Shown here one piece after another: positions 1,340 to 37,568 of a DNA stretch of 64,000 bases. A program made the position numbers and the translations under genes. A model generated the notes under the pieces. It saw only the letters and a list, made by a program, of their open reading frames with translations, searched no databases and was not told the origin of the DNA. The stretch spans positions 27,824 to 91,823 of the forward strand of contig WGMW01000003.1 of assembly GCA_016124845.1 (NCBI GenBank), in the 5' to 3' direction. Within the stretch, counting starts at the first letter, position 1; each line of letters begins with the position of its first letter. This DNA comes from Flavobacteriales bacterium (lineage in GTDB: Bacteria; Bacteroidota; Bacteroidia; UBA10329).

Positions 1340-2440
1340 GATTCTTGCCCATAGGTAGCCTGCGCTGATTTCTATGACACGACTAAATTATCCTGATACG
1401 GTTTTTGGTTTTTTATCACAGCAAAAGCCCTGTGCAGTATCTTGTTTCTTACTGCATTCAAAACGCTCATTTTGTTTTTGCCCTCGGCTACTTTTCTCAG
1501 ATAATAGGTTCTTAGTTCACCGTCCAAACGGATGGAACTCATTGCGGCCAGATGAAGAATTCCTTTCAGGTCTCTATCAGCATAGTGCGACACCCTACTT
1601 CTGCCTCTGACCGATGTTCCGGATGAGTGTTCAAAAGGTACAACGCCAGCGTAACAGGCCATTTTACGCGGGTCGGATATGGAGATGAACCCGTTGGTCT
1701 TGTAGAGCAGATTCCAACAAAGGACCTTGCCGATGCCTGTAACCGTCCGCAGAAGTTTGCTCTGCTGATTCAGACTTTCATCCTGCTTCACCAGTTCATC
1801 CAGAGCTGTCTCTACGATCTAACATGCTTATTGAGATCTTTGATCAGTCCTCGATTGTTCCCTGTCAATGCTTTTTTGGTGGGACCATTGTCCAAAAGGT
1901 CAAAGTCTTTCTGTGCGCAAAGCGTCTGAGTCTTCATTTTTTTCAATCGTCTGCGTTCAGAGATCAGAACACCCAAGGCGTCTATCACCTTTCTTTTCGG
2001 TTTCCAGGGAGTGAGTTCCGCGTGGTTCTTTCCGATGAAATTGCAGATACGCTTGGCATCTGTCCGGTCATCCTTGCCCCTTACCAGTCCAAGGCTCTTG
2101 CTGATGTGCAGTGGGTTGATGACAAAGACTTTGAAACAATGGTCGCTCAACACACTCAGTAACGGCCAGTTGTACCTTCCGGTGTTCTCCATACCGATAA
2201 TGAAAAAGCCTTCATTCAAATGTTTCTTGAAGAACTTTCGAATGCTGCCGGTGGTGTTATCAATACGATGGTCATCGTAATTGCCGTCCGACCCCAAGCT
2301 GATGTCCAAGGTCTTTTTACTGATGTCCACTCCCACAAATACTTCATGTTTATTCATGATTTTGATTTTAAGAGGTCTACTTAAGGAGAAGGAAGGATAC
2401 ACAGTGGAACTTAACTCCTATAATGGGTCGTGGGTCCGAA
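1340..2440 (-). mobile_element. IS110-family insertion sequence with a disrupted transposase. Boundaries are approximate.
   Basis: Two adjacent minus-strand ORFs cover the two halves of an IS110-type transposase. IS110 elements lack terminal inverted repeats, so the ends cannot be fixed by eye. Confidence 0.6.
1372..2402 (-). pseudogene. IS110-family transposase split into two ORFs by a frameshift or stop. The N-terminal DEDD domain is at 1812..2402 and the C-terminal domain at 1372..1791.
   Basis: The N-terminal ORF reads MNKHEVFVGVDISKKTLD...NTGRYNWPL, typical of the IS110 N-terminal catalytic domain. The C-terminal ORF reads CYAGVVPFEHSSGTSVRGRSRVSHYADRDLKGILHLAAMSSIR, typical of the C-terminal domain. 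The two are in different frames and separated by about 20 bp. Confidence 0.7.
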
Positions 2441-6047: not shown

Positions 6048-6677
6048 AAGTATTCCATCGTTATAGTATCTATCATTCTCATCGGAGCGATGAGTATTTT
6101 CGGAACCACCAAAAACGAACAGAAAATGAGCAGCAGCGAGGCCGCATTGGAGAAAGCAACTTTCGGAGCAGGGTGTTTCTGGTGTGTGGAGGCCATGTTT
6201 CAGGACATCAAAGGCGTTACCAGCGTGGTGTCTGGCTACAGTGGCGGACACGTGAAAAATCCGTCTTACAAGGAGGTTTGCACGGGAAGAACGGGCCATG
6301 CGGAGGTCATTCAAGTGACCTACGACCCCGATATTGTCTCCTACGAAACGCTGCTGGAGGCCTTCTTCCTCTCGCACGACCCAACGCAACTCAACCGCCA
6401 AGGCGCGGATGTAGGTACGCAGTACCGCTCGGTGATCTTCTACCACACGGCTGTGCAACAGCAGTTGGCAGAGGAGAAAAAGGCGGCACTGAACAGGGAA
6501 GATGCCTTCGGTGCACCAGTGGTAACTGAGATCTCAGCGTTTGAAACGTTCTACCCAGCGGAAGATTACCATCAGGATTACTACGCCATCAACCCCAACC
6601 AGCCGTACTGCTCACGCGTGGTGGGCCCCAAACTGGACAAGTTCAGGAAGGTGTTTAAGGACAAACTCAAGCACTAA
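6048..6677 (+). CDS. msrA: Peptide methionine sulfoxide reductase MsrA with a signal peptide.
   Basis: GAGCFWCVEAMF is the catalytic GCFWC motif, followed by HAEVIQVTYDP. The ORF track starts at 6015. MKYSIVIVSIILIGAMS at 6048 is the more likely start. Confidence 0.85.
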   Translation, partial: KYSIVIVSIILIGAMSIFGTTKNEQKMSSSEAALEKATFGAGCFWCVEAMFQDIKGVTSVVSGYSGGHVKNPSYKEVCTGRTGHAEVIQVTYDPDIVSYETLLEAFFLSHDPTQLNRQGADVGTQYRSVIFYHTAVQQQLAEEKKAALNREDAFGAPVVTEISAFETFYPAEDYHQDYYAINPNQPYCSRVVGPKLDKFRKVFKDKLKH

Positions 6678-7081
6678 CCTCTCAGGTGCCGCCACCCTGA
6701 GCCTGCCCCGTTGCAGAACGGGGTTTCAGGGTCTAAACCAACTAATTCATCCGCCTCCGAGAAACCCAACCGGGCATTCGTCAAAGTCTCCTCATCAAAC
6801 CAATCAGCAGCAAGGTCATCCAAATTTGGATTGGCTTCGCTGATAAGATTGAACTTCCATTCACGGTGCCACCGTTTCAGTTGCTTTTCGCGGGAAATGG
6901 CCTGCGTCATATCGGGGAAATCCTCGTAATACAAAAGGTATTTACAGTTGTATTTCGAAGCGAATTCGGAACCCGTACCAACCTTATGTCTCAACATTCG
7001 CTTTTCCAGATTACCTGTTACACCGATATACAGCACGGTTCGTTCATAGTTGCTGATGATATAGAAGTACCCTTTGATCAT
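6674..7081 (-). CDS. GIY-YIG nuclease-family protein.
   Basis: YFYIISNYERTVLYIGVTGNLEKRMLRHK carries the GIY-YIG signature. Its end overlaps the msrA stop. It lies between msrA and a duplicated msrA 3' fragment. Confidence 0.7.
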   Translation of the reverse strand: MIKGYFYIISNYERTVLYIGVTGNLEKRMLRHKVGTGSEFASKYNCKYLLYYEDFPDMTQAISREKQLKRWHREWKFNLISEANPNLDDLAADWFDEETLTNARLGFSEADELVGLDPETPFCNGAGSGWRHLRG

Positions 7082-7132: not shown

Positions 7133-7325
7133 GTCACCCTGAACTCGTTTCAGGGTCTGTGGTTACAAGGTTCTATGTGGATTCAGATGCTGAAACAAGT
7201 TCAGCATGACGCTTCGAGTTATCACACTGCATACGAGAGCGTGTCACCCTGAACTTGTTTCAGGGTCTATCCAATTTGGAACTATGGAATAGATGCTGAA
7301 TCCGCCTGAGGCGGACAGCATGACG
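7133..7325. repeat. Cluster of four hairpin repeats from the two-hairpin element family, in the GTCACCCTGAAC(T/A)(T/C)GTTTCAGGGTC and ATGCTGAAACAAGTTCAGCATGAC forms.
   Basis: Hairpins at 7133-7158, 7185-7211, 7241-7268 and 7291-7325. The last has an extra inner palindrome, CCGCCTGAGGCGG. Confidence 0.7.
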
Positions 7326-13049: not shown

Positions 13050-13129
13050 GGCCACAGATGCTCAGATTTTCACTGATTCTGCACAGAAAATTGATCAGAG
13101 AAATCTGTGTAAATCCGTGAATCTGTGGC
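13050..13129. repeat. Long palindromic intergenic element from the AGCCACAGA...TCTGTGGCT family.
   Basis: GGCCACAGATGCTCAGATTTTCAC...GTGAATCTGTGGC. Confidence 0.7.
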
Positions 13130-13139
13130 GTTAAAGTGT

Positions 13140-14654
13140 TCACTCGGTGTCCTTAATTCGTTTTAATAATTGCTTCTTATCCAAAAATTGACTGCATGTG
13201 ACGATTGAACTGATGGTAACACCAAAGATGCCATGCAGGTTCAAATATTGTCCAGTCAACCAAAGGTTGGGGATTTTTGTTTGCGGAGAGATGAAATTCG
13301 TCAGCCCTCTGCGGAAATCTTTTTCGGTTCCGTACATGTTTCCATCATCATTGCCGATGTAATCGCGGAAAGTAAGCGGGGTTGAAGCATGCACACTTTG
13401 AATGCAGTTTCTGATCTCAGGGAAACGCTTTTCAACCGCATCCAATAACTGTTCGGTTTTCTGATGTTTCCAAGCTTCGTAATCGGATGGGCGTTCGTGC
13501 GGGGAAACAATCGTGTTCTGCGAATTCGCCCATTGTTCCACTTCATCAAACCGCATGTAGGTCATGATGGAAATGCCGTCTGCCCATTCATCCGACTTTG
13601 AAGTGGCGGGCGTGCAAAGCAGGTATTGCAACGGCCATTCAGCTTCCGTGTAATCAGGTTTGGCCCAAACATGATTGGAAGTGTGGTGATAAACATTGTA
13701 GTTCAGATACGGGAACGATTGTGGCTTGCAAACGATGTGCACCGAAAAGCTGGAAAGCGTGTGTAGAGCGCGCTGAAACCGATTGTAAAATGACGGTTTG
13801 AAATGCTCCTTTCCGATCATCTGCAACAGCACTTTCGGTTGAATGTTGGAGATGAAATTCTTGCCTTGGAAGGTTTCTCCGTCTTCGGTTTTCGCGGCCG
13901 TGAGTTGACCACTTTCCAGTTCAAAACCGACCACTTTCTTTCTTCGCAGCACTTCACCGCCTTTCTCGCGGATGCGCTTGGAAAGTTCCTTGGCCAATTG
14001 CGAACCGCCATCCACGCAACGGTATGCGCTCAACACATATCCATGCGTGACCAACGCATGAATATAGAGTGGACACTTCTCAGCAGAACCCGCGTAAAGC
14101 AAGTTTGAACCCGCCAGGACTGCCCGTAATTTCGGGTTGAGTGTAAGTCCATCGATCAACTCTTTGGCACCAAGACCCAATAGGCCGATGTCTGTATGGT
14201 CTTGCTCCGAGAATTCAAGTTGATCCAACGGGAACGTGGTCACGGTTTCCTGAATGGTTCGGCTGTAAAGTTGAATGGCTTTTTCTTCATCAGGAAACTC
14301 CTTGATCAATTCGTCTTCGAAAGCTTCCCAAGAACTGGTATGATGGAATTTCGAGCCGTCATCAAAACTTATTTGGTCGAAATGGTTGTCCATCTTCTTC
14401 CATTTCACACTTTCTGTAAGTCCGAAGTATTTGAAGTAGGAGTGAAGTGGTTGGCCTTCGTCCAGCGCGGGCAGATAATGCACGCCTGTATCGAAAACCG
14501 TTTTGTCCCTACTGAAAACCTGTAACGAGCCGCCCAACTGTTGGTTCTTTTCCAGCACACAGATACTGAAACCATGGTCAGCCAAGATGTAAGCACATTG
14601 CAAGCCACCCAGCCCACTACCAATGATCACGAAATCGTACACCTTCTCCGTCAT
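13140..14654 (-). CDS. FAD-dependent oxidoreductase, CrtI / retinol-saturase-like.
   Basis: MTEKVYDFVIIGSGLGGLQCAYILADHGFSICVLEKNQQLGGS. The track extends this to a TTG at 14672. The ATG at 14654 is the more likely start. Confidence 0.7.
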   Translation of the reverse strand: MTEKVYDFVIIGSGLGGLQCAYILADHGFSICVLEKNQQLGGSLQVFSRDKTVFDTGVHYLPALDEGQPLHSYFKYFGLTESVKWKKMDNHFDQISFDDGSKFHHTSSWEAFEDELIKEFPDEEKAIQLYSRTIQETVTTFPLDQLEFSEQDHTDIGLLGLGAKELIDGLTLNPKLRAVLAGSNLLYAGSAEKCPLYIHALVTHGYVLSAYRCVDGGSQLAKELSKRIREKGGEVLRRKKVVGFELESGQLTAAKTEDGETFQGKNFISNIQPKVLLQMIGKEHFKPSFYNRFQRALHTLSSFSVHIVCKPQSFPYLNYNVYHHTSNHVWAKPDYTEAEWPLQYLLCTPATSKSDEWADGISIMTYMRFDEVEQWANSQNTIVSPHERPSDYEAWKHQKTEQLLDAVEKRFPEIRNCIQSVHASTPLTFRDYIGNDDGNMYGTEKDFRRGLTNFISPQTKIPNLWLTGQYLNLHGIFGVTISSIVTCSQFLDKKQLLKRIKDTE

Positions 14655-14766
14655 TCGCTGCGAAGGTCGCAAACGCGCGGTTAATTGGATTACGGTGATT
14701 TACGGATGAGGAAATGAAAAACGTGAAACATGTAATTGAAGTTATCTTTTGAGTTAACTTTGCGGT

Positions 14767-15105
14767 GTGGTAAGGAAAATCATCTTCTTCGAAACGCACT
14801 TTATTGAGTTCTATCAGGAGCAGGACGCGAAGGTGAAAGCCAAGATCCAGTACGTGCTTGAACTGATAAAACAGGTTGACCGCGTGCCAGAGAAATTCCT
14901 GAAACACTTGGAGGGAACGGATGGTCTGTATGAGATACGGGTCGAGTTCCAATCGAACATTTACCGCATCTTCTGTTGTTTTGATGAAGGACGGTTGGTG
15001 ATACACTTCAACGGTTTTCAGAAGAAAACGCAGAAGACACCGAAGAACGAAATTGAAAAGGCGCAGCGTTTGATGCGGCAATATTTTGAACAGAAAAGCA
15101 ATTGA
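14767..15105 (+). CDS. Type II toxin of the RelE/ParE superfamily, Gp49/HigB-like.
   Basis: 112 aa. The FYQEQDAKVKAKIQYVLELIKQ...YEIRVEF...RIFC pattern is typical of the phage Gp49-like killer family. Its end overlaps the start of the downstream XRE gene by 4 bp, so the toxin comes first. Confidence 0.65.
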   Translation: MVRKIIFFETHFIEFYQEQDAKVKAKIQYVLELIKQVDRVPEKFLKHLEGTDGLYEIRVEFQSNIYRIFCCFDEGRLVIHFNGFQKKTQKTPKNEIEKAQRLMRQYFEQKSN

Positions 15106-15407
15106 AAATGGACAGATACGCGAACATCAAGGATTTTGACCAGCTTGTTGAACTCGAACATGGAAAGGTCGGTTCTGAAAGTAGAAACCGCTATGAGGAG
15201 AATGCACAGATGTTCATCATCTCTGAGATGTTGAAGGCTGCACGCAAGGAGGCCAATCTTACGCAAGAGCAATTAGCAGAAAAGACAGGCACCAAGAAGA
15301 GCTACATATCCAAATTGGAGAACGCCAAAGGGAACATTCAACTTTCCACGCTCATCCGCATTTTTGAGCAGGGGCTTAACAAGCGAATTGGGCTTACCTT
15401 TCTGTGA
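15102..15407 (+). CDS. HTH_XRE antitoxin, partner of the upstream toxin.
   Basis: LKAARKEANLTQEQLAEKTGTKKSYISKLENAKGN is a canonical XRE helix-turn-helix. Confidence 0.65.
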   Translation: MKMDRYANIKDFDQLVELEHGKVGSESRNRYEENAQMFIISEMLKAARKEANLTQEQLAEKTGTKKSYISKLENAKGNIQLSTLIRIFEQGLNKRIGLTFL

Positions 15408-15417
15408 TGGTTGGAAT

Positions 15418-15502
15418 AGATGCTGAAACAAGTTCAGCATGACGGCAACGGTTTACCATTAAACTTCTCAGAGTGCGTCAACCTGAACTTGTTTCAGGTT
15501 CT
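15418..15502. repeat. Two-hairpin element.
   Basis: AGATGCTGAAACAAGTTCAGCATGACGG at 15418-15445 and GTCAACCTGAACTTGTTTCAGGTTCT at 15477-15502. Confidence 0.7.
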
Positions 15503-15510
15503 GTTTTTCG

Positions 15511-15632
15511 AGATGTACGCACATTGCAGGCCGCCCAGCCCACTACCGATGATCACGAAATCGTACAGCTTCTCCGTCATTCGCTGCGAAGGTCGCAAAC
15601 GCGCGGTTAATTGGATTACGGTGATTTACTGA
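15511..15632. repeat. Duplicate of the 5' end and upstream region of the oxidoreductase gene at 14586-14705, of about 120 bp. It encodes a truncated MTEKLYDFVIIGSGLGGLQCAYIS peptide.
   Basis: It aligns to 14586-14705 with only a few mismatches. It includes the 36-bp motif AAACGCGCGGTTAATTGGATTACGGTGATTTAC. Confidence 0.75.
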
Positions 15633-15635
15633 CTG

Positions 15636-15968
15636 TCACTTCAACACGTCCGCAATGCTTTCATCCTTATCGAAAACGCTTTTCGCATAAGGACAAAGCG
15701 GCAGGATCTTCTTGTTCTCGCGCCTTGCCTTGGAAACTATGGCGTCCAAAAGTTTTCTCCCAACGCCTTGACCGCGGAACTTGTCTGAAACTTCGGTGTG
15801 ATCGATAATGATCAGATCATCTCCAGCGATGGAGTAGGTCATTGCCGCTTCAGGTTTGCTGAATTCGCCAATGTATGCAGCACCTTTGCTGCCTTGTTCT
15901 TTCAGTAGAATTTCCATGGATAGTTTGACAAGCTTGAAGGTAACACCCGAGTTTGTTTGATGGTTCAA
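15636..15968 (-). CDS. GNAT-family N-acetyltransferase (small, YjdJ-like).
   Basis: The FRGQGVGRKLLDAIV acetyl-CoA binding motif is present. Confidence 0.55.
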   Translation of the reverse strand: MNHQTNSGVTFKLVKLSMEILLKEQGSKGAAYIGEFSKPEAAMTYSIAGDDLIIIDHTEVSDKFRGQGVGRKLLDAIVSKARRENKKILPLCPYAKSVFDKDESIADVLK

Positions 15969-16042
15969 TTTTTCGGAAAGCTGGAAAAAGAAAGCGGCCC
16001 GATGGAATTTCCATCGGATCGCCTATTTCAGTGAGTTCAGAA

Positions 16043-16528
16043 TTACTTCTGTGGGCTCATTTTATTGAACATGTAGCGGGCAATTTTCCATTCGCCATTA
16101 ACTTTTTCGAACACGAAAAGCTCGCGGTTTTCTTCTGGAACGGTCTGTCCAAGTGCGTGTATCAGGGTTGTTCCTTTGGATGTAGTTGTGGCAAACGCAA
16201 AGTTGTTCTCTACGGTGATCTCCTCGATGAAGAATTCAATGTTCAGCTGAATTTGCGAGAACACGAATTCATATGCCTTTCTGATATTCTCCGTTCCGTT
16301 GGCAGATGGCGCTTCGGATGGCATGAACACGCCATCTTTCGCATAAAGGCTGGTTGAAAGTTCAGCGTTGGAGGTGTTCAGAGAGGTCTTGTACACTTCC
16401 AGAAGTTGTTCAATCTGTTGTTTGTCTTGTTTTTCCATTGTTGCTGTGTTTTGAGGATTTGACGTTTCGGTTTTTGAGTTACATGCGATGAGTGCCATCG
16501 CGATAATGATTGCTGAGAAATACTTCAT
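16043..16528 (-). CDS. Lipoprotein with an NTF2/SnoaL-like (DUF4440-like) fold.
   Basis: The lipobox ALIACNS is present. The ORF is 161 aa. Confidence 0.45.
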   Translation of the reverse strand: MKYFSAIIIAMALIACNSKTETSNPQNTATMEKQDKQQIEQLLEVYKTSLNTSNAELSTSLYAKDGVFMPSEAPSANGTENIRKAYEFVFSQIQLNIEFFIEEITVENNFAFATTTSKGTTLIHALGQTVPEENRELFVFEKVNGEWKIARYMFNKMSPQK

Positions 16529-16615
16529 GGCGTTTTGTTTTTGGTTCGATACAAAGGTGAACCATGCGAGGCAGCCCCACCCATAAGGTTGATTAAGAAA
16601 TGGTCTTAATGTAGA

Positions 16616-17209
16616 TTAAGATTTGCCATTGCCGAGCACGGTTTCCTTCCGGATCTTACTCAGAAACTCGGGCGTTACGCCAATGTAAGAGGCGATCTGA
16701 ACGTTGGAAATGCGGTTGAAAAGATGCGGATGGTTTTCGAGGAAATCGAGATACCGTTCTTCGGCTGACGAACTGATGTTCTGAAGCACACGCTTCTGAA
16801 GGGCCACAAACGCATCCTCGATCATCACGCGGAAGTTGCGGTCAAACTTGGGGTAGTTGACGTAGAAATGGAGCAGGTCGGGTCGCTCGATCTGAATGAC
16901 CACCGAATTCTCGATGGCTTCGATGTAAAGTTCGCTTGGCTTTTCGGTGTGGAAACTGCCAATGTCGCAGATCCACTCATTCTCAATGGCAAACTGAAGG
17001 TTGTGTTCCTTGCCCGTTCCGTCCACCTTGTACATGCGGAAACAGCCTTCCACCACAAACGTGTAGCGCGTGCAGATATCACCTTCCTGAAGAATGAACT
17101 GGCGTCTTTTTATCCGTCTTTCCGTAGCACGTTTTTCCAACTCCTCAATTTCCTGCTTTTCCAATGGCAGGTAATTAGACAACTGATCGATGACGGGTTG
17201 AAGGTTCAT
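16616..17209 (-). CDS. Crp/Fnr-family transcriptional regulator.
   Basis: An N-terminal cNMP-binding beta-roll and a C-terminal HTH (ASYIGVTPEFLSKIRK). The likely start is MNLQPV at 17209. The track starts at 17239. Confidence 0.7.
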   Translation of the reverse strand: MNLQPVIDQLSNYLPLEKQEIEELEKRATERRIKRRQFILQEGDICTRYTFVVEGCFRMYKVDGTGKEHNLQFAIENEWICDIGSFHTEKPSELYIEAIENSVVIQIERPDLLHFYVNYPKFDRNFRVMIEDAFVALQKRVLQNISSSAEERYLDFLENHPHLFNRISNVQIASYIGVTPEFLSKIRKETVLGNGKS

Positions 17210-17269
17210 TTCGCTTTCCTCAAAACGAAAGTAACACAAGTCAAATTTGGAAACGCGCGGTTAATTGGA

Positions 17270-17776
17270 TTACGGTGATTTACGGAGGGTTTGAGCAAAG
17301 TCAAAATATGTCAGTAGTAGCGTTAACAAAACTATACCCGTGATGAAGGCGAGATGATGAGTAATATTCCTTACCGTCAAACTCAAATGTTTTCTAACAG
17401 TTTTTCCAAAAACGAGAACGAGGAATATTGTGAAGAATAAACAAAGAATTGTAATATAGATTTCCCCATAAGAAATCAGGAAGTCAGCCAAATTTTGACT
17501 TGGCTGAGGATTAGTTTTGTTAAGAACAGAGATTGCCCTGTACAGGTAGAACACCTGAGGGTAAACTGATATCCAAAGTCCGATTTTAACTCTTCTCAGG
17601 ATAAGTGCTAAACCCAAAACCATGAGAAGAATTGGAAACAATTTCTCCAGAAACATAAAATCGGTTGCATCAAAATAACGCAGGTAATGTGTTGATAGAA
17701 TGAGGCTGTTCCCAATTGATACAATCAACCCTGAAATGGCTAAAGGAATTACCACTATGAAATTGGTCGCTCTCAT
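17270..17776 (-). CDS. Hypothetical integral membrane protein of 168 aa with about 5 transmembrane segments.
   Basis: Several hydrophobic helices. The TGTTACTTTCGTTTTG motif lies 12 bp upstream of the start. Confidence 0.5.
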   Translation of the reverse strand: MRATNFIVVIPLAISGLIVSIGNSLILSTHYLRYFDATDFMFLEKLFPILLMVLGLALILRRVKIGLWISVYPQVFYLYRAISVLNKTNPQPSQNLADFLISYGEIYITILCLFFTIFLVLVFGKTVRKHLSLTVRNITHHLAFITGIVLLTLLLTYFDFAQTLRKSP

Positions 17777-17815
17777 TTTTCCCTCCCCAAAACGAAAGTA
17801 ACACTCGAATTTGCT

Positions 17816-18223
17816 TTACGCAGCACTCTTATTCTCCATCAGATCATAGGGACGATTGAATGCCTCCTGCGCCATTTTAAAATGCCCGGCCAGTTTGCGG
17901 ATGCTCTCTTTTGAAAGTCCTTTCTGATAGTTCAGAATTTTGGAGATTGTTCCTTTGGAGAGTTCGAGAATATCAACAAGGTCTTTTGCCTTCAGTCCGT
18001 TTTCATGCATCAGCGCGGTAAGCAGTTCAATCGGGTCTTTCTCCTTGAATGAAGCATGTTCGGCATCCCACGTTCCGATCAGAAGCGTGAGCAGTTCAAT
18101 CTCATCCTGCACATCGGCATTCTGGCTGAAAACCAGTTCTTCCAACGTGTTGCAGTAATCGTTGTATTGCTTTTTGGTTTTGATAACGCTGTATTTCAAC
18201 TCTGCCATGGCTCTGAATTTCAT
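17816..18223 (-). CDS. higA: HigA-type antitoxin with a C-terminal XRE HTH.
   Basis: AKDLVDILELSKGTISKILNYQKGLS is the HTH. It overlaps the upstream toxin by 4 bp. Confidence 0.65.
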   Translation of the reverse strand: MKFRAMAELKYSVIKTKKQYNDYCNTLEELVFSQNADVQDEIELLTLLIGTWDAEHASFKEKDPIELLTALMHENGLKAKDLVDILELSKGTISKILNYQKGLSKESIRKLAGHFKMAQEAFNRPYDLMENKSAA

Positions 18224-18555
18224 TTGTACATATCCACCGAATATTGTTCACCCTTCTTGCAAAGCTTGTCGTATTCGGCATGTGTTCCCATCCATTTTAC
18301 AAAGAGATGCGCCTGGTGTTTCCCAAACATGTAAGCGCAGATCAACCTGTATTTGTTGCCGCCAATATTGAAAACCACTCGATTGGAGCCATTTCCAAGA
18401 ATGTCGGCCGTGTTGAAGGTCGCCACCATGTCAGCAGGTTCGTTCCAGTCGGCCTGACCGAGGATGGACAGCCACGTCTCAAATCCCGTTCTGCTTTGCG
18501 CGTTCTTTCCAATGAAGTCGAGAATGCTTTGCTTTTTGATCAGGTGAACTTTCAT
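18220..18555 (-). CDS. higB: HigB-type mRNA-interferase toxin.
   Basis: 111 aa. MKVHLIKKQSILDF...NRVVFNIGGNKYRLICAY...HLFVKWMGTHAEYDK is typical of the HigB toxin family. The toxin-first order matches HigBA. Confidence 0.65.
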   Translation of the reverse strand: MKVHLIKKQSILDFIGKNAQSRTGFETWLSILGQADWNEPADMVATFNTADILGNGSNRVVFNIGGNKYRLICAYMFGKHQAHLFVKWMGTHAEYDKLCKKGEQYSVDMYK

Positions 18556-18626: not shown

Positions 18627-18709
18627 AGATGCTGAAATAAATTCAGCATGACGGCCGAGGTTTGCTGCAACCTTACAAATTCTGTCACCCTGAACTTGTT
18701 TCAGGGTCT
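18627..18709. repeat. Two-hairpin element. It overlaps the stop codon of the large fusion gene.
   Basis: AGATGCTGAAATAAATTCAGCATGACGG at 18627-18654 and GTCACCCTGAACTTGTTTCAGGGTCT at 18683-18709. Confidence 0.7.
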
Positions 18710-21700
18710 ACGCCTCAAAACGAAAGTAACATTCGAGCTTGCCTTGTTCTCCAAGCGTTCTACGCTCAGGTTGAACTGCTCGGCAAAGGAGAGAATGCGC
18801 GCTTCGGGTAGGAATTCCAGTTCGTGTTCGGTCTTGTTGAAACCGAAGAGTTTGGTGCTGAAAACCTCCGTCATTTTGGTCACGCCATGTTTCTGCTGCT
18901 CATCCTCAATACCATCGCGGATGATGATGATACCGCCATCGTTCAGCTTTTCGCCACAGCGTTGCAGCAGCGCTTCCTGTTCGGCCGCAGGGAAATAATG
19001 CAGCACATCTTTAATGATGATACAGTCGGCCGCTTCGGGCGTGAACTGCGTCAGATCCGCCTGCGCAAATGAGATGTTGCCACCGCTGTAATGCGTGTTG
19101 GCCGCCACTTGGATCTTCTCCTCATCGTAATCCAACCCGATCACCTGCCTATCGAACGACTGCATTGCAAGCAGATGCGAGAGATAACCGTATCCGCAAC
19201 CCAGATCGTAGGCTTTTCCTTCTCGCGGCACACGCGAAACAATTTCCTCAAAATTCTTTTCGAGCATCATTTTGATGCGCACGTACCATTCCAGCACAGG
19301 ACCTTTGTACGTGTACAGCCGCTGCACCTTATCCGCAAAGAAATCGGCCGTTTCCACCTCCAGACGCACTTTCTCAAACTCTGATTTGAAATGCCTTGAA
19401 ATAGCCTTGGTGCGTTCGCGGTAACCTGTTCCGTAGCTGGCATCATCGGCAGTAATGCGCGGCAGATATTTCATCGTCATCACGCTCTTCTGAACGGAGA
19501 AATCGCCCTTTCGCAACGCGTGATGAATGCCGTGCAGAATAACGGGTTGAATGTCCAACTGCATCTGCTCGGCCAAGTAGAACGCCCCTTTCTTGAAACG
19601 CCCAATGCGGCCGTCCAAACTGCGCGTTCCTTCAGGAAAAATGAGAATGGAATAACCCTCATCGATCTTCTTGCGGATGTTCTCCAGATCCCACGAGGTC
19701 TCATCCTTGGCGTGGATGAATTCCGCGTAACGGATAAACGCCCCGAAAAAGGGCGAATTCCACACCCAATCGTTCGTAACGAGTAGCAATTTGTTGCTGC
19801 TGCCGATCATCACCATTAGATCCACAAATGAAGCGTGGTTCGCAATGAGAATGGCGGGTTTGTCGAGCGGGTCTTTGTCGATCCAACGCTCCTTCACGTG
19901 CCACATCGTCTTGTAATCCGTCCAGATAAACCAGCTGATAAGCGACAACATCCAATGCTTCTTTTTCTGCGATTTGATGGGCAGCGGAAGCAGCGCGATG
20001 AGGATGACAGTGAGGATGATGCAGCCGATGAAGAACCAGCCGAATGCCAGCGCTGCGCGGAAGAAATCGCGGAGTTCGAGCGGGGAGAAGCCGCGTTTTT
20101 TGCGACTGTCGATGAGGATGTCGTAAAGCAGCGGTTGCAGTGTGAGCGATGCGATGACCACGCAGACCATTCCTGTGACCGAAAGCACCGCGATGGAATG
20201 CAACGCGGGATGCTGCGAGACGATGAGTACACCCGTTCCGATGATGGTGGTAATGGCCGAAAGGATGATGGAGCTGCGGTACGAACGCAGCTTGTCGATA
20301 CCGTATTTGTAGCGGCTCAGGATGCCGTCAGAAACGAAGATGGAATAGTCATCGCCCAGCCCGAAAATGAACGTGGTAACCACCACATTGATCATGTTGA
20401 ATTTGATGTGGAACAGGCCGCAAATGCCGAGGATCCAAACCCAACTGACGGCCATTGGTAGGAAGGTTACGAGCGCCAATTCCAAGCGGCCATAGGTGAG
20501 GAGGAGCACCACGAAAACCAGCCCCGATGTGATGAGCAGCATGAGGTTAAGGTCCTCGCTGACCGTATCCACCAAATTCTGAGCGAGCGAACTACGCGCA
20601 ACGGTTTCCAGTCCTTCCAATTGTTCGGTTTTCTCTGTGAATTCCGCTCGTTTGGCTTTCGGAAGATTGACCGTAGAAACCACATTGTAGCCGTCATCGC
20701 CTTTAAAAATGAACTCGCTGTAGATCGGGTCGTTCAGCAGGAAATCGCGGTAGAATTGCTCATCAGCGACTTCGTAGGTTCGAAACAGGTCTTGATAAAC
20801 AGATAGGAATTGAGGCTGAAAGCCGAGTTCTGTTCCTTGCTCAGAAAGATTGAATTCAATTTCCTCATCTAATTCCGAAACGTATTTGTTCCACGTTTCA
20901 ACGCTTGCTTGGATTTGACTTGGAGTGAGAACAACATCAGTCAGAACCGTAGAGCGGATGGAAGTGTCTTTCAAAGCATTTTGAACTCCAGCACTTTTAG
21001 CAACGGCACTTCCAAGGTTTTCATCAGCAGAAAGCACAAATAGACTTTCGCGGTTGCTGTCTCCGACAATAATGTCCTGAGCGCGCTGAAGATGCTCTGG
21101 GAAGTAGTTGATCTTGTTCAGGTCATTCTCAAATTCGACCTCATCCGCGAAATTCCAAAGGAAGACCGTAGCTCCGATAAGACTGAAAAACAGCAACGCT
21201 TTCCACTTGAAAGCCATGGGTTGCTTTTCCTTCGGTTCGGCCATCGGTTTGAACTTGGCTAACGTGGCAAGATGTGGCAGTCCGAGCAATGCGAAGAAGG
21301 CTGTTCCGATAAGGCTCAAACCTGCAAATGTTCCAAAATCGGCAAGCACTTCGGAATGCAGGAAGTTTAGGCAGAAGAAGGCTGCAACAGTTGTGGCGCA
21401 ACCCAGCAACATGGGCGAACTCACGTCTTTCAGCGTTTCCGAAATGGATCCCGTTTCGCGGTAATGATTGAAGAAGTGGAAGCTGTAATCGATGGCAATT
21501 CCCAGCACAATCGTACCCACTGCAACCGCAATGGCCGAAATAGAACCTTGCCAGAGCGTGATCATCGCCAAGGCGAAAACCAATCCGAAAATGGCAGGGA
21601 TGAAGAATAGAATCGGTAAAAAGAGTTTGCGGAAATAGCCAATGAGCAGCAACAGAATGATCACACCCGCCAGAATACCCACCAGGTTCGTATCCTTCTT

Positions 21701-22492
21701 AATACGTGTGGCATTCCCAACGGCAATCACAGGCCCACCAAAGAGCAGGATTTCCTCTTCGCTCAATTCAGCAGAAACCGTATCAACCGCAGCTTGCAAG
21801 CCTTCCACCAATCTTGTGTTTTCGATGGTTTCCGAAGGTGGATGCGTGGGCTTCACGATCATCAGCAGATACTCGCCATCGGCCGTAAATGTGTAGCCAT
21901 CCACAATTTTGAACGTGCTGCCTTCTTCGAGTTTGCTCAATCGTTTCAGAATGGGCGAACCGAGCTGCAGTGGGTCTTTCATTAGGAACTTCTTGGTTCC
22001 CAAGCTTTCATAGCTGCGAAGACGGTTCAGGGTGGAAGTGAGGCGTGTTTCGATGCCATCTCCCGAAAGGTCTTTGAAAAGCGTATCGATCTCATCCGCG
22101 GTCAGAAAATACGGCAGATCACGTAGGTAATTCCCGTAAGCCTGTTCCAACTTCGCGGCATCCGAACTGAACTGAATGTCCTTGAACAATCCTGTGTCCA
22201 ACTGGTTGAATTGCTCCAAAAGGTTCTCACCGATGGAAACAAGTTCATCACTTGACGATTTCGACAACGGCCCGATCGCTACAACAATGTTTCCAGATAT
22301 AGACGAATTGCGGTATAGATTGTCGTACTTCTTGAACTCCTCAGTCCTCGGAAACGTTTTGGTAATGTCTTCCTCAATGTGGAGCTGGCTCGCTTTCCAG
22401 CCCATCATGACGAAAATCACGGCAAACCCAAACAGCCATAACCATTTGAATTTTAGCGTTTTAAGATAAATAGACTGAAGTATCCGACCCAT
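18701..22492 (-). CDS. Tri-domain fusion: an MMPL/RND-type exporter, a lysophospholipid acyltransferase (PlsC-like) and a SAM-dependent methyltransferase. This architecture is a hallmark of flexirubin/aryl-polyene clusters.
   Basis: About 12 transmembrane segments of MMPL type. NHASFVDLMVMI is the HxxxxD acyltransferase motif and FPEGTRS the second motif. The methyltransferase motif I is LGCGYGYLSHLL. The likely start is MGRILQSIYL at 22492. The track extends to 22633. Confidence 0.7.
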   Translation of the reverse strand: MGRILQSIYLKTLKFKWLWLFGFAVIFVMMGWKASQLHIEEDITKTFPRTEEFKKYDNLYRNSSISGNIVVAIGPLSKSSSDELVSIGENLLEQFNQLDTGLFKDIQFSSDAAKLEQAYGNYLRDLPYFLTADEIDTLFKDLSGDGIETRLTSTLNRLRSYESLGTKKFLMKDPLQLGSPILKRLSKLEEGSTFKIVDGYTFTADGEYLLMIVKPTHPPSETIENTRLVEGLQAAVDTVSAELSEEEILLFGGPVIAVGNATRIKKDTNLVGILAGVIILLLLIGYFRKLFLPILFFIPAIFGLVFALAMITLWQGSISAIAVAVGTIVLGIAIDYSFHFFNHYRETGSISETLKDVSSPMLLGCATTVAAFFCLNFLHSEVLADFGTFAGLSLIGTAFFALLGLPHLATLAKFKPMAEPKEKQPMAFKWKALLFFSLIGATVFLWNFADEVEFENDLNKINYFPEHLQRAQDIIVGDSNRESLFVLSADENLGSAVAKSAGVQNALKDTSIRSTVLTDVVLTPSQIQASVETWNKYVSELDEEIEFNLSEQGTELGFQPQFLSVYQDLFRTYEVADEQFYRDFLLNDPIYSEFIFKGDDGYNVVSTVNLPKAKRAEFTEKTEQLEGLETVARSSLAQNLVDTVSEDLNLMLLITSGLVFVVLLLTYGRLELALVTFLPMAVSWVWILGICGLFHIKFNMINVVVTTFIFGLGDDYSIFVSDGILSRYKYGIDKLRSYRSSIILSAITTIIGTGVLIVSQHPALHSIAVLSVTGMVCVVIASLTLQPLLYDILIDSRKKRGFSPLELRDFFRAALAFGWFFIGCIILTVILIALLPLPIKSQKKKHWMLSLISWFIWTDYKTMWHVKERWIDKDPLDKPAILIANHASFVDLMVMIGSSNKLLLVTNDWVWNSPFFGAFIRYAEFIHAKDETSWDLENIRKKIDEGYSILIFPEGTRSLDGRIGRFKKGAFYLAEQMQLDIQPVILHGIHHALRKGDFSVQKSVMTMKYLPRITADDASYGTGYRERTKAISRHFKSEFEKVRLEVETADFFADKVQRLYTYKGPVLEWYVRIKMMLEKNFEEIVSRVPREGKAYDLGCGYGYLSHLLAMQSFDRQVIGLDYDEEKIQVAANTHYSGGNISFAQADLTQFTPEAADCIIIKDVLHYFPAAEQEALLQRCGEKLNDGGIIIIRDGIEDEQQKHGVTKMTEVFSTKLFGFNKTEHELEFLPEARILSFAEQFNLSVERLENKASSNVTFVLRRRP

Positions 22493-22642
22493 CAGAAAAG
22501 ATTGGCAGTCAATGATAGGGAACAAAATTGATTTAACGTTAAATTTGCGCCCCCTGAGAACGGGCTCACCCAAAACTCGCACGTCATAGGACCAACACTT
22601 ACACTCGATCAGTTTTTCCGCGTTGTTGTACAAGGAGAAAAA

Positions 22643-37464: not shown

Positions 37465-37568
37465 AGCCACAGATTCACGGATTAGCACTGATTTTTCACA
37501 GAATATATTCGCAAAGCGAAAAGAAAACAATCTGTGTTTTTTCTGTGAAAATCTGAGCATCTGTGGCT
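37465..37568. repeat. Palindromic family element.
   Basis: AGCCACAGATTCACGGATTAGCAC...GTGAAAATCTGAGCATCTGTGGCT. Confidence 0.7.

What the first reader, a model, noticed from the sequence alone, without database searches (positions are those of the whole stretch)
14586..15632. Toxin-antitoxin cassette inserted with a 120-bp duplication of a gene's 5' end and promoter
15511-15632 is a near-exact copy of 14586-14705. That region holds the first 24 codons of the CrtI-like oxidoreductase plus about 50 bp upstream, including a conserved 36-bp motif. Between the copies are a RelE/Gp49-like toxin, its XRE antitoxin and a two-hairpin repeat. The duplicated copy encodes a truncated peptide. A 120-bp target duplication is far larger than classical transposon target-site duplications, which points to a recombination or integrase-mediated cassette insertion. 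It may also give the downstream GNAT gene a second copy of the promoter.
Basis: seen in the sequence. Interest (0 to 1): 0.6.

Follow-up and report, generated by a model that had tools for sequence, protein, structure and literature searches.

The report
Toxin-antitoxin insertion flanked by duplicated gene-start
A toxin-antitoxin gene pair in a Flavobacteriales pigment gene cluster lies between two copies of the first 122 bases of the neighbouring gene, and this is the youngest layer of a recombination hotspot where foreign genes have repeatedly been spliced in with duplication of the bordering gene ends, which is a known kind of event rather than a new mobile element.

Summary
14585-14706 and 15511-15632 are 122-nt direct repeats (116/122 identical). 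They flank a Gp49/RelE-type toxin, its XRE antitoxin and a REP-pair hairpin. Each repeat holds 52 nt upstream of the CrtI-like gene plus its first 70 coding nt.

The "36-bp motif" is not a mobile-element end. It is the native, conserved sequence upstream of this gene in about 20 related lineages. In two lineages with an empty site, its left half is the real 3' end of the upstream 1310-aa gene.

The gap between these two core genes of a flexirubin-like cluster is a hypervariable hotspot. Extra copies of the same upstream block flank unrelated inserts in at least five lineages. The left boundary is fixed and the right boundary varies (-16, -3, ATG, about +22 to +33, +70). Stubs of the upstream gene's 3' end also recur, for example around the HigBA pair.

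The same cassette sits at the same place in two other lineages. There it is 94-98% identical while the neighbouring gene is 81% identical, which indicates horizontal spread.

No integrase, transposase or inverted-repeat ends were found. The best explanation is homology-anchored insertion-duplication, that is "insertion with long target duplication". The GNAT-promoter idea is wrong, because GNAT ends at the copy.

The parts
13140..14654 (-). CrtI-like / amine-oxidase-family FAD oxidoreductase. It is a core gene of the flexirubin-like cluster, and its 5' end is the duplicated sequence.
   Evidence: Pfam Amino_oxidase E 8e-21 and NAD_binding_8. Orthologues at 77-93% aa identity in L001-L044.
14585..14706 (-). 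Copy 1, the proximal and functional copy: 52 nt of native upstream block plus the first 70 nt of the gene.
   Evidence: The upstream block is conserved in relatives.
14707..14766 (+). Toxin upstream region. It has a Bacteroidota-type -7 box TAACTTTG (14749-14756) overlapping the palindrome AGTTAACT, a putative autoregulatory operator.
   Evidence: Read from the sequence. Homologous, with indels, in L011 and L028. Function is inferred.
14767..15105 (+). Gp49/HigB-RelE-type toxin, 112 aa.
   Evidence: PF05973 E 4.7e-24. Homologues at 97-100% identity occur only at this locus.
15108..15407 (+). XRE-family HTH antitoxin, 99 aa (101 aa if it starts at the TTG at 15102).
   Evidence: HTH_3 E 2e-14. 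100% aa identity to the L011 copy.
15415..15505 (.). REPIN-like inverted pair of a dispersed REP hairpin. It is the likely terminator of the toxin-antitoxin operon.
   Evidence: Inverted repeat I1. 7 REP copies in the window. Fold -40.2 kcal/mol, z -4.4. Hairpin followed by a T-run on the + strand. The first hairpin is also present after the antitoxin in L028.
15511..15632 (-). Copy 2, the distal and displaced copy: the same 122 nt, ending at coding position +70. It is a pseudogene stub with a 28-aa ORF.
   Evidence: Its left edge abuts the GNAT stop codon, as in the empty-site relative L002.
15636..15917 (-). GNAT acetyltransferase, 93 aa, whose 3' end abuts copy 2. GNAT directly upstream of the CrtI-like gene is the arrangement in L002, L018, L043 and L044.
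   Evidence: Acetyltransf_CG E 2e-23..
16043..17209 (-). SnoaL-like lipoprotein (16043-16528) and Crp/cNMP-binding regulator (16616-17209). With GNAT they form the block between motif copies 2 and 3.
   Evidence: The same genes occur in L024, L018, L041 and L043.
17218..17236 (-). Stub of the 3' end of the 1310-aa upstream gene, 19/19 identical, just upstream of the Crp ATG.
   Evidence: 0 expected by chance. nhmmer E 0.037.
17249..17288 (-). Motif copy 3. It is 36 nt identical to copy 1, or 39 of 40 nt matching the L001 allele, and it is truncated at -16 relative to the ATG.
17270..17776 (-). 168-aa hydrophobic ORF with 37% GC and no Pfam hit. It lies between a 3'-end stub and motif copy 3, and its last codons (LRKSP*) are read from the motif.
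17785..17808 (-). Stub of the 3' end of the upstream gene, 22/24 identical, directly after the HigA stop codon. HigBA is therefore also flanked by a gene-end duplication.
   Evidence: 0 expected by chance. nhmmer 17775-17817, E 1.4e-4. L003 has the same arrangement.
17816..18555 (-). Second toxin-antitoxin pair: HigB toxin (18220-18555) and HTH antitoxin (17816-18223).
   Evidence: HigB_toxin E 2.7e-25.
18701..22633 (-). The 1310-aa MMPL / acyltransferase / methyltransferase fusion gene, the other core gene bordering the hotspot. Its real 3' end is at 18713-18736.
   Evidence: Orthologues in relatives.

Best explanation
The 122-nt repeat is the scar of a homology-anchored insertion-duplication at a recombination hotspot.

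The setting. Two core genes of a flexirubin-like pigment cluster were originally adjacent: the 1310-aa MMPL/acyltransferase/methyltransferase gene and the CrtI-like oxidoreductase. In empty-site lineages they are 35 nt apart. In most lineages the gap now holds accessory genes that differ from lineage to lineage.

The event (inferred). DNA from a related lineage carried [REP hairpins - antitoxin - toxin - native upstream block - start of the CrtI-like gene]. On one side it paired by homology with the resident CrtI-like gene. At its other end it was joined illegitimately to the resident copy at coding position +70. Two routes give the same product:
- a linear fragment with homology at one end only (homology-facilitated illegitimate recombination);
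- a circularised fragment integrating by a single Campbell-type crossover.
The product has an intact gene with its upstream block (copy 1), the cassette, and a displaced stub of the resident gene start (copy 2) still attached to GNAT.

Recurrence. The same process has happened repeatedly on both sides of the hotspot. It has left nested stubs of the CrtI-like gene's 5' region and of the upstream gene's 3' end.

Present function. The cassette is an ordinary type II toxin-antitoxin operon, with a Gp49/RelE-fold toxin, an XRE antitoxin, a promoter-operator at 14740-14760 and the REP hairpin as terminator. Once flanked by two copies of a conserved block, it can be lost by recombination between the repeats. 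It can also be moved into relatives by ordinary homologous recombination, with the distal copy serving as a short left arm. This fits its spread among lineages.

Shown versus inferred. Shown: the anatomy, the native origin of the repeated block, the hotspot, the recurrence with a fixed left and a variable right boundary, the lower divergence of the cassette, and the absence of recombinase genes. Inferred: the recombination pathway, which copy came from the donor, and promoter and terminator function.
For: 1. The repeated block is native sequence. It aligns with the region upstream of the orthologous gene in about 20 lineages. In the two empty-site lineages, L005 and L042, its left part encodes the real C-terminus of the upstream gene..TFILRKSA*.

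2. The gap is a hotspot. Its content is different in L001, L002, L003, L004, L008, L011, L018, L024, L033, L040, L043 and L044, and it is empty in L005 and L042.

3. The event recurs. A profile of the 59-nt upstream block finds extra, co-oriented copies that flank unrelated inserts:
- window: two extra copies;
- L011-type: 52 nt, 94% identical;
- L003: 57 nt, 82%;
- L033-type: 70 nt, 87%;
- L044: 51 nt, 86%.
In all of them the left boundary lies at about GTAAATCA. The right boundary lies at -16, ATG, ATG, about +22 to +33, -3 and +70. A fixed boundary where homology between lineages ends, combined with a variable other boundary, is what homology plus an illegitimate joint predicts.

4. The other side shows the mirror image. 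Stubs of the upstream gene's 3' end lie at 17785-17808 (after HigA) and 17218-17236 (before Crp), and after HigA in L003.

5. The same cassette sits at the same place in L011-type contigs (7 independent assemblies) and in L028. Third-codon-position differences are 4-6% in the toxin and 13-17% in the antitoxin, against about 42% in the adjacent CrtI-like gene. Closer relatives L001, L018 and L024 lack the cassette. Together this indicates horizontal spread among lineages.

6. The two copies look like different alleles, not like decay in place. Copy 1 carries 4 derived changes, all at third codon positions. The non-functional copy 2 has only 2 changes in 122 nt (Fisher p = 0.006).

7. The CrtI-like gene is mosaic between lineages, with segment identities ranging from 59% to 94%. 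Inter-lineage homologous recombination therefore acts here.

8. There is no evidence of a dedicated mobile element. There are no integrase or transposase genes in or beside the site, in the window or in relatives. No inverted repeats bound the cassette. There are no tRNA genes. The motif and the cassette are absent from viral contigs, phages and plasmids.

9. There is precedent. "Insertion with long target duplication" of restriction-modification addiction modules involves repeats from over 30 bp to about 400 bp, no mobility genes, and mostly naturally competent species (PMC2853133). [quoted passage not shown]
Against: - The donor sequence left of the hairpin pair is unknown, because the L028 contig stops there. 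Microhomology at the illegitimate joint could not be examined, so the pathway is inferred from products only.
- The distal junction differs between the window (+70, then hairpins) and the L011 type (ATG, then 16 nt). At least one extra event must be assumed, either independent insertions or a later deletion.
- The polarity argument rests on 6 differences.
- Natural competence or another DNA-uptake route in this uncultured lineage is unknown.
- The copy 2/hairpin junction in this window comes from a single metagenome assembly.
- Recurrence at one place could also reflect an unrecognised recombinase acting in trans.
Confidence: 0.62

Rival explanations
1. Site-specific integration. The conserved block would be an attachment site (attB) for a tyrosine or serine recombinase encoded elsewhere. 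The cassettes would be small integrase-less elements mobilised in trans, accumulating in tandem as at tRNA-gene islands or integrons.
For: Direct repeats of the same block occur at the borders of successive gene blocks, three copies in the window, all co-oriented. The pattern recurs at one site in five lineages. Integrating elements that restore a gene end by carrying a copy of it are well known (own knowledge; tRNA examples are discussed in PMC2853133).
Against: - No integrase or recombinase is in the window near the site or in any relative's hotspot.
- The right boundary of the repeat varies from -16 to +70, and repeat length varies from 36 to 122 nt.
- Duplications occur in lineages whose block sequence differs substantially, for example L003 against the window.
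- The upstream gene's 3' end is duplicated in the same manner at a different sequence.
- No attP-like copy was found in viral, phage or plasmid collections.
Confidence: 0.1
2. Duplication in place, followed by an unrelated insertion. A 122-nt tandem duplication would arise by slippage or unequal crossing-over, and the cassette would later land between the copies.
For: Tandem duplications are common. The two copies are 95% identical.
Against: - It needs two events at exactly the same point, in several lineages independently.
- No genome shows the duplication without an insert.
- The distribution of differences does not fit decay in place: 4 synonymous changes in the functional copy against 2 changes in 122 nt of the dead copy, p = 0.006.
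Confidence: 0.07
3. Transposition with an unusually long target duplication. Candidates are an IS of the kind that makes long, variable direct repeats, the IS110 element in the window, or a REP-associated (RAYT) transposase acting on the hairpin pair.
For: A REPIN-like hairpin pair lies exactly at the distal joint. A split IS110-family transposase lies at 1372-2402. Transposons that form long, variable repeats are mentioned in PMC2853133.
Against: - The L011-type cassette has the duplication but no hairpin pair.
- Other inserts with the same duplication carry no REP or IS.
- The cassette has no terminal inverted repeats.
- Close homologues of the cassette are never found at another locus.
- The IS110 element is 12 kb away and looks disrupted.
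Confidence: 0.05
4. Assembly chimera. Two co-existing strains, one with GNAT-block-gene and one with cassette-block-gene, would have been joined wrongly in the metagenome-assembled contig.
For: The window comes from a metagenome-assembled genome; the identical toxin P0001 is on a 100.7-kb MAG contig. The copy 2/hairpin junction is seen only once.
Against: - The copies differ at 6 positions, and no shared k-mer exists between the gene at +70 and the hairpin flank that could mislead an assembler.
- Analogous duplications are present in 7 independent assemblies of the L011 type and in several of the L033 type.
- The independent contig L041 ends in the motif on both sides, as expected for a true repeat.
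Confidence: 0.04

Closest known systems
Insertion with long target duplication of restriction-modification gene complexes (Nobusato et al. 2000, Gene 259:99; Furuta, Abe and Kobayashi 2010, PMC2853133)
   Same: A small addiction-type gene unit is inserted into a chromosome with no mobility genes. It is flanked by direct repeats of tens to hundreds of bp. The repeats are a single-copy native sequence in empty-site genomes, and they often overlap the end of a neighbouring gene. Repeat lengths are long and variable. The mechanism has not been shown experimentally.
   Different: The cargo is a type II toxin-antitoxin pair, and in relatives ordinary metabolic genes, rather than a restriction-modification system. 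The host is an uncultured Flavobacteriales lineage. The events are stacked at one hotspot and involve both bordering gene ends. The authors' suggestion that double-strand breakage by the restriction enzyme drives the event cannot apply here.
Homology-facilitated illegitimate recombination, and the displacement arrays attributed to it (Rhs, CDI and T6SS effector-immunity arrays; Kirchberger et al. 2017, PMC5361080; PMC3240628)
   Same: A conserved stretch acts as an anchor for incoming DNA from relatives, and the non-homologous end is joined illegitimately. Successive events push older material outward. They leave arrays in which pieces of the conserved sequence recur.
   Different: In those arrays the conserved anchor is the 5' body of a toxin gene, and what accumulates is orphan toxin tips and immunity genes. 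Here the anchors are the ends of two biosynthetic core genes and the cargo is miscellaneous. The pathway was not demonstrated here.
Integrative elements that target a gene end and carry a replacement copy of it (tRNA-gene islands, prophages)
   Same: An intact gene is retained next to the insert, a displaced partial copy sits at the far end, and repeats can be longer than 30 bp.
   Different: There is no integrase. The identity-block boundary is not fixed. The insert is 0.8 kb. The duplicated end is a 5' end together with its upstream region.
Gp49/HigB-type toxin with XRE/HigA-type antitoxin (type II toxin-antitoxin)
   Same: Pfam Gp49 and HTH_3 domains, toxin gene first, the two genes 2 nt apart or overlapping. 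Thousands of homologues in Bacteroidota are annotated RelE/ParE-family toxin.
   Different: Nothing unusual in the proteins themselves. Activity was not tested.

Membership tests
Type II toxin-antitoxin (Gp49/HigB-RelE toxin + XRE antitoxin) | Toxin matches the family profile above the curated threshold. | tested here: met
   PF05973 scored 84.7 bits against a cut-off of 23.9, E 4.7e-24.
Type II toxin-antitoxin (Gp49/HigB-RelE toxin + XRE antitoxin) | An adjacent small DNA-binding antitoxin gene in the same operon. | tested here: met
   HTH_3 scored 53.7 bits against a cut-off of 23. The genes are 2 nt apart or overlap by 4 nt, depending on the antitoxin start codon.
Type II toxin-antitoxin (Gp49/HigB-RelE toxin + XRE antitoxin) | Toxicity of the toxin and its neutralisation by the antitoxin. 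| not testable with these tools
   This needs expression experiments.
Insertion with long target duplication (criteria of PMC2853133) | Flanking direct repeats longer than 30 bp. | tested here: met
   122 nt, 116/122 identical.
Insertion with long target duplication (criteria of PMC2853133) | The repeated sequence is present once, at the same place, in genomes without the insert. | tested here: met
   There is a single copy upstream of the orthologous gene in L001, L002, L018, L024, L040, L005 and L042. These are related species, not strains of the same species.
Insertion with long target duplication (criteria of PMC2853133) | Insert shorter than 20 kb, with no mobility genes in or beside it. 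| tested here: met
   The insert is 804 nt and holds only the toxin, the antitoxin and the hairpin pair. Neighbouring genes have no integrase or transposase domains.
Insertion with long target duplication (criteria of PMC2853133) | Cargo is a restriction-modification system, as the class was originally defined. | tested here: not met
   The cargo is a toxin-antitoxin pair. This is therefore the same kind of event with a different cargo.
Homology-facilitated illegitimate recombination product | One joint lies within homology shared by donor and recipient, and the other joint is illegitimate, usually at a microhomology. | tested here: inconclusive
   The fixed left and variable right boundaries fit. 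The donor sequence at the illegitimate joint is unknown because the L028 contig ends there.
Classical transposon / IS insertion | A transposase gene, or terminal inverted repeats, at the ends of the insert. | tested here: not met
   No inverted repeat bounds 14707-15510, and the only local one is the internal hairpin pair. There is no transposase domain.
Classical transposon / IS insertion | A short target-site duplication of fixed length. | tested here: not met
   The duplication is 122 nt here and 36-70 nt in other cases at the same site.
Integrase-mediated island (attL/attR) | An integrase or recombinase gene in the element or beside it. | tested here: not met
   Pfam scans of window ORFs from 1 to 36 kb and of hotspot genes in relatives found none. 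The only hit is a split IS110-family transposase 12 kb away.
Integrase-mediated island (attL/attR) | An identity block with fixed boundaries, shared by all insertions at the site. | tested here: not met
   The right boundary lies at -16, -3, ATG, about +22 to +33 and +70.
Integron cassette array | An IntI integrase with attI, and attC sites at the cassette ends. | tested here: not met
   No integrase was found. The repeated block is native gene-flanking sequence. attC-type structure was not specifically searched for.

The most novel reading that the evidence does not exclude
Duplicated core-gene ends may act as portable homology arms. Once a cassette is bracketed by two copies of a block conserved across species, it becomes a recombinase-free mobile unit. 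It can loop out as a circle and can be installed in any relative that carries the single block by ordinary RecA recombination, while the toxin-antitoxin pair selects against its loss. This would be a general route for the unexplained mobility of chromosomal toxin-antitoxin and other small accessory modules. It parallels the virus-like cycle that Kobayashi's group hypothesised for restriction-modification systems.
Probability: 0.2. Interest if true: 0.6.

Novelty: new member of a known kind. Interest (0 to 1): 0.4.

Why it matters
How small chromosomal toxin-antitoxin modules move without transposases or integrases is poorly documented. This locus gives a clear natural record of one route. The same cassette has spread among lineages whose neighbouring gene is only about 81% identical, always next to one conserved gene start, and each time it is bracketed by a duplicated piece of that gene. 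Other cargo has entered the same gap in the same way, leaving stacked stubs of both bordering genes.

This extends "insertion with long target duplication" from restriction-modification systems to toxin-antitoxin and ordinary genes, and to Bacteroidota. It also shows a hotspot inside a pigment biosynthesis cluster. In practice, it warns annotators that short N-terminal pseudo-ORFs and repeated "motifs" next to accessory genes can be recombination scars rather than regulatory or mobile-element signals.

Tried and rejected
- Rfam and tRNA scans of the window found nothing, so the motif is not a known RNA and not a tRNA-type att site.
- The exact CrtI-like protein is not on record.
- An exact 27-mer of the motif found nothing in metagenome contigs. 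A 24-mer found nothing in viral contigs. Close toxin relatives are absent from viral contigs. The whole finding has no near match in phages, and in plasmids only a 74%-identical toxin fragment.
- The repeat finder at a minimum length of 25 showed no duplications in the relatives scanned; the range scanned in L003 did not reach its second copy. They appeared only with a profile search (nhmmer).
- I considered the motif as a binding site for the adjacent Crp-like regulator, and as a dif/att-like recombination site. I dropped both because the sequence is not conserved as a palindrome in lineages that also show the duplication, and because its left half is coding sequence of the upstream gene in empty-site lineages.
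- I looked for a Bacteroidota -7 box (TAnnTTTG) in the repeated block and found none. The sigma-70 scan was also negative.
- I tried to find a recombination breakpoint in the CrtI-like gene that would identify donor and recipient parts. The gene is mosaic between lineages, but no relative is close enough (at most 90% nt identity) to place a breakpoint.
- A possible decayed gene fragment between the distal ATG and the antitoxin stop in L011 (14 of 19 matches with one gap) is too weak to count.
- Two PMC ids for the original papers on homology-facilitated illegitimate recombination were not held.


Full report
**1. The observation**

The window holds a 122-nt direct repeat, 14585-14706 and 15511-15632, 116/122 identical. 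Read on the minus strand, each copy is 52 nt of upstream sequence followed by the first 70 coding nt of a 504-aa FAD oxidoreductase of the amine-oxidase/CrtI type at 13140-14654.

Between the copies lie three things:
- a Gp49/RelE-type toxin at 14767-15105;
- an XRE antitoxin ending at 15407;
- an inverted pair of hairpins at 15415-15505.

The hairpin is a dispersed REP-like element with seven copies in the window. The pair folds into one long REPIN-like hairpin (-40.2 kcal/mol, z -4.4) followed by a T-run, so it is a plausible terminator of the toxin-antitoxin operon.

GNAT (15636-15917) is on the minus strand and its stop codon lies 3 nt from copy 2. The copy is therefore downstream of GNAT and cannot be its promoter.

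An independent assembly contig, L041, is identical to 15600-17280 and breaks inside the motif at both ends. That is the behaviour of a true repeat.

**2. What the repeated sequence is**

Relatives of the oxidoreductase were fetched from genome and metagenome collections and through protein look-ups. All are Flavobacteriales/Bacteroidota metagenome contigs.

The gene belongs to a flexirubin-like aryl-polyene cluster. The cluster contains a tyrosine/aromatic ammonia-lyase, a ketoreductase, a ketosynthase, a 1310-aa MMPL/acyltransferase/methyltransferase fusion, two amine-oxidase-type genes, a halogenase-like gene and a flavin monooxygenase.

The block upstream of the ATG is conserved in about 20 lineages at 77-93% protein identity. 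This includes GTAAATCA..., a small palindrome TGCGAnCTTCGCA, and the ATG context.

In L005 and L042 the fusion gene and the oxidoreductase are only 35 nt apart. There the left part of the block is the real end of the fusion gene...TFILRKSA*. The "motif" is therefore native junction sequence, not the end of a mobile element.

**3. A hotspot**

In nearly every other lineage, different genes lie between the two core genes:

| Lineage | Content of the gap |
|---|---|
| L002 | GNAT alone |
| L001 | a 484-aa gene on the opposite strand |
| L024 (closest relative, 89% nt) | Crp and SnoaL abutting the block |
| L018 | SnoaL and GNAT |
| L008 | secreted proteins |
| L003 | SDR, TPP enzyme, epimerase and beta-propeller genes |
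| L033 | two alanine racemases, a peptidase, a transporter and a GNAT |
| L044 | AraC, pirin, nitroreductase and GNAT |
| L043 | HigBA, Crp, SnoaL, a ParE toxin-antitoxin pair and GNAT |

None of these genes is an integrase or transposase. The window has none near the site either; the only one is a split IS110-family transposase 12 kb away.

**4. The duplication is recurrent**

A profile of the 59-nt block finds extra, co-oriented copies in five lineages:

| Lineage | Repeat | Right boundary | Insert between the copies |
|---|---|---|---|
| window, copy 2 | 122 nt, 95% | +70 | hairpin pair and toxin-antitoxin cassette |
| window, copy 3 | 36-40 nt, 100% | -16 | Crp, SnoaL, GNAT |
| L011 type | 52 nt, 94% | ATG | the same toxin-antitoxin cassette |
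| L003 | 57 nt, 82% | ATG | four unrelated genes (5.4 kb) |
| L033 type | 70 nt, 87% | about +22 to +33 | five unrelated genes (5.4 kb) |
| L044 | 51 nt, 86% | -3 | four genes |

The left boundary is always at about GTAAATCA, which is where sequence shared between lineages begins. The right boundary differs each time.

The other core gene shows the mirror image. Its last 19-24 nt recur at 17785-17808, directly after the HigA stop codon, and at 17218-17236, just before the Crp ATG. None is expected by chance. L003 has the same stub after its HigA.

Read in the direction of the oxidoreductase gene, the window's hotspot is:

fusion gene - REP - HigBA - 3' stub - membrane ORF - 5' stub - 3' stub - Crp-SnoaL-GNAT - 5' stub (copy 2) - REPIN - toxin-antitoxin - intact block (copy 1) - oxidoreductase.

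**5. The cassette has moved between lineages**

Toxins at least 97% identical occur only at this locus. They are in seven independent assemblies of the L011 type and in L028, where the same first hairpin follows the antitoxin before the contig ends.

The three lineages are about 81% identical in the oxidoreductase gene, with about 42% of third codon positions different. In the toxin they are 98% identical (4-6% of third positions different) and in the antitoxin 94% (13-17%). Closer relatives L001, L018 and L024 lack the cassette. This patchy distribution, together with the lower synonymous divergence, indicates horizontal spread to the same site.

The toxin-proximal joint is homologous in all three lineages. 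The distal joint differs: +70 followed by hairpins in the window, against the ATG followed by 16 nt in L011.

**6. The two copies look like two alleles**

At the six sites where the copies differ:
- copy 1 (functional) carries four derived states, all at third codon positions;
- copy 2 (dead) carries two, in 122 nt.

Decay in place would do the opposite (Fisher p = 0.006). The oxidoreductase gene is also mosaic between lineages.

**7. Mechanism**

The best-supported reading is homology-anchored insertion-duplication.

- Incoming DNA from a related lineage carried its own hotspot content plus the conserved gene start.
- It paired with the resident gene on one side.
- Its other end was joined illegitimately a few tens of nt inside the resident conserved block.
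- A circularised fragment integrating by one crossover gives the same product.

This explains the intact gene, the displaced stub still attached to GNAT (GNAT next to the block is the arrangement in L002, L018, L043 and L044), the fixed left and variable right boundary, the mirror-image stubs on the other side, and the absence of recombinase genes.

The pathway itself is inferred, because the donor sequence at the illegitimate joint is not available. Confidences for the alternatives are: site-specific integration about 0.1; duplication in place followed by insertion about 0.07; transposition with a long duplication about 0.05; assembly chimera about 0.04.

**8. Comparison with what is known**

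The closest described phenomenon is "insertion with long target duplication" of restriction-modification gene complexes. Its repeats run from over 30 bp to about 400 bp, no mobility genes are involved, the repeat is a single copy in empty-site genomes, it occurs mostly in naturally competent species, and its mechanism is unproven (PMC2853133). All its structural criteria are met here except the cargo.

[quoted passage not shown] The layered stubs here are the same logic applied to the ends of two biosynthetic genes.

I found no report of this for toxin-antitoxin modules in the searchable library. That search is not exhaustive.

**9. Verdict**

It is a new member of a known kind of event. Its value is mainly as a clean, multi-layered natural example, and as a hint that duplicated core-gene ends can serve as portable homology arms for cassette spread.

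Noticed in passing
window 17785-17808 and 17218-17236, compared with 18713-18736: The last 19-24 nt of the 1310-aa MMPL/acyltransferase/methyltransferase gene recur twice as stubs. One lies right after the HigA stop codon, so the HigBA pair is itself flanked by a gene-end duplication. The other lies just upstream of the Crp ATG, next to motif copy 3.
   Followed up: yes
window 7189, 15422, 15476, 18631, 27129, 45584, 45622: There is a dispersed REP-like hairpin, GCTGAAACAAGTTCAGCATGACG, with 7 copies. Two inverted pairs (15422/15476 and 45584/45622) look like REPINs. The same element occupies the same intergenic region in L008, L013, L015, L017 and L028. No RAYT-type transposase was looked for.
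   Followed up: partly
window 1372-2402 (minus strand): An IS110-family transposase is split into two ORFs, DEDD_Tnp_IS110 at 1812-2402 and Transposase_20 at 1372-1791. It is probably frameshifted.
   Followed up: no
window 13051-13129 and 37466-37493: A second hairpin-repeat family (GCCACAGAT...AATCTGTGTAAATCCGTGAATCTGTGGC) lies between the CrtI-like stop codon and the halogenase-like start codon. One arm recurs at 37.5 kb. A similar CACAGA-type hairpin follows the fusion gene in L003.
   Followed up: partly
L043 9012-9595 (Logan SRR23403440): A different toxin-antitoxin pair, a ParE toxin with a 65-aa partner on the opposite strand, is inserted between SnoaL and GNAT in the same hotspot. Beside it is a weak, decayed copy of the upstream block (nhmmer E 0.019).
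   Followed up: partly
window 13140-14654 compared with L040, L011 and L028: The CrtI-like gene is mosaic between lineages. For example, L040 is 59-70% identical over nt 270-540 but 87-94% identical over nt 810-1440. This indicates inter-lineage homologous recombination inside the pigment cluster.
   Followed up: partly
window 17270-17776 (minus strand): A 168-aa hydrophobic ORF has 37% GC against 47.5% for the window and no Pfam match. Its start overlaps one gene-end stub and its last codons are read from motif copy 3. It may be foreign, or not a real gene.
   Followed up: no
window 14708-14728 and L003 3237-3262: An A-rich sequence next to the motif (GAGGAAATGAAAAACGTGAAA) resembles, in the opposite orientation, the tail after the fusion gene's stop codon in L003. 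It may be a decayed stub or only low-complexity similarity. It remains unexplained.
   Followed up: no
window 6674-7081 (minus strand): A stand-alone GIY-YIG nuclease-domain protein lies next to a REP copy at 7189-7211.
   Followed up: no
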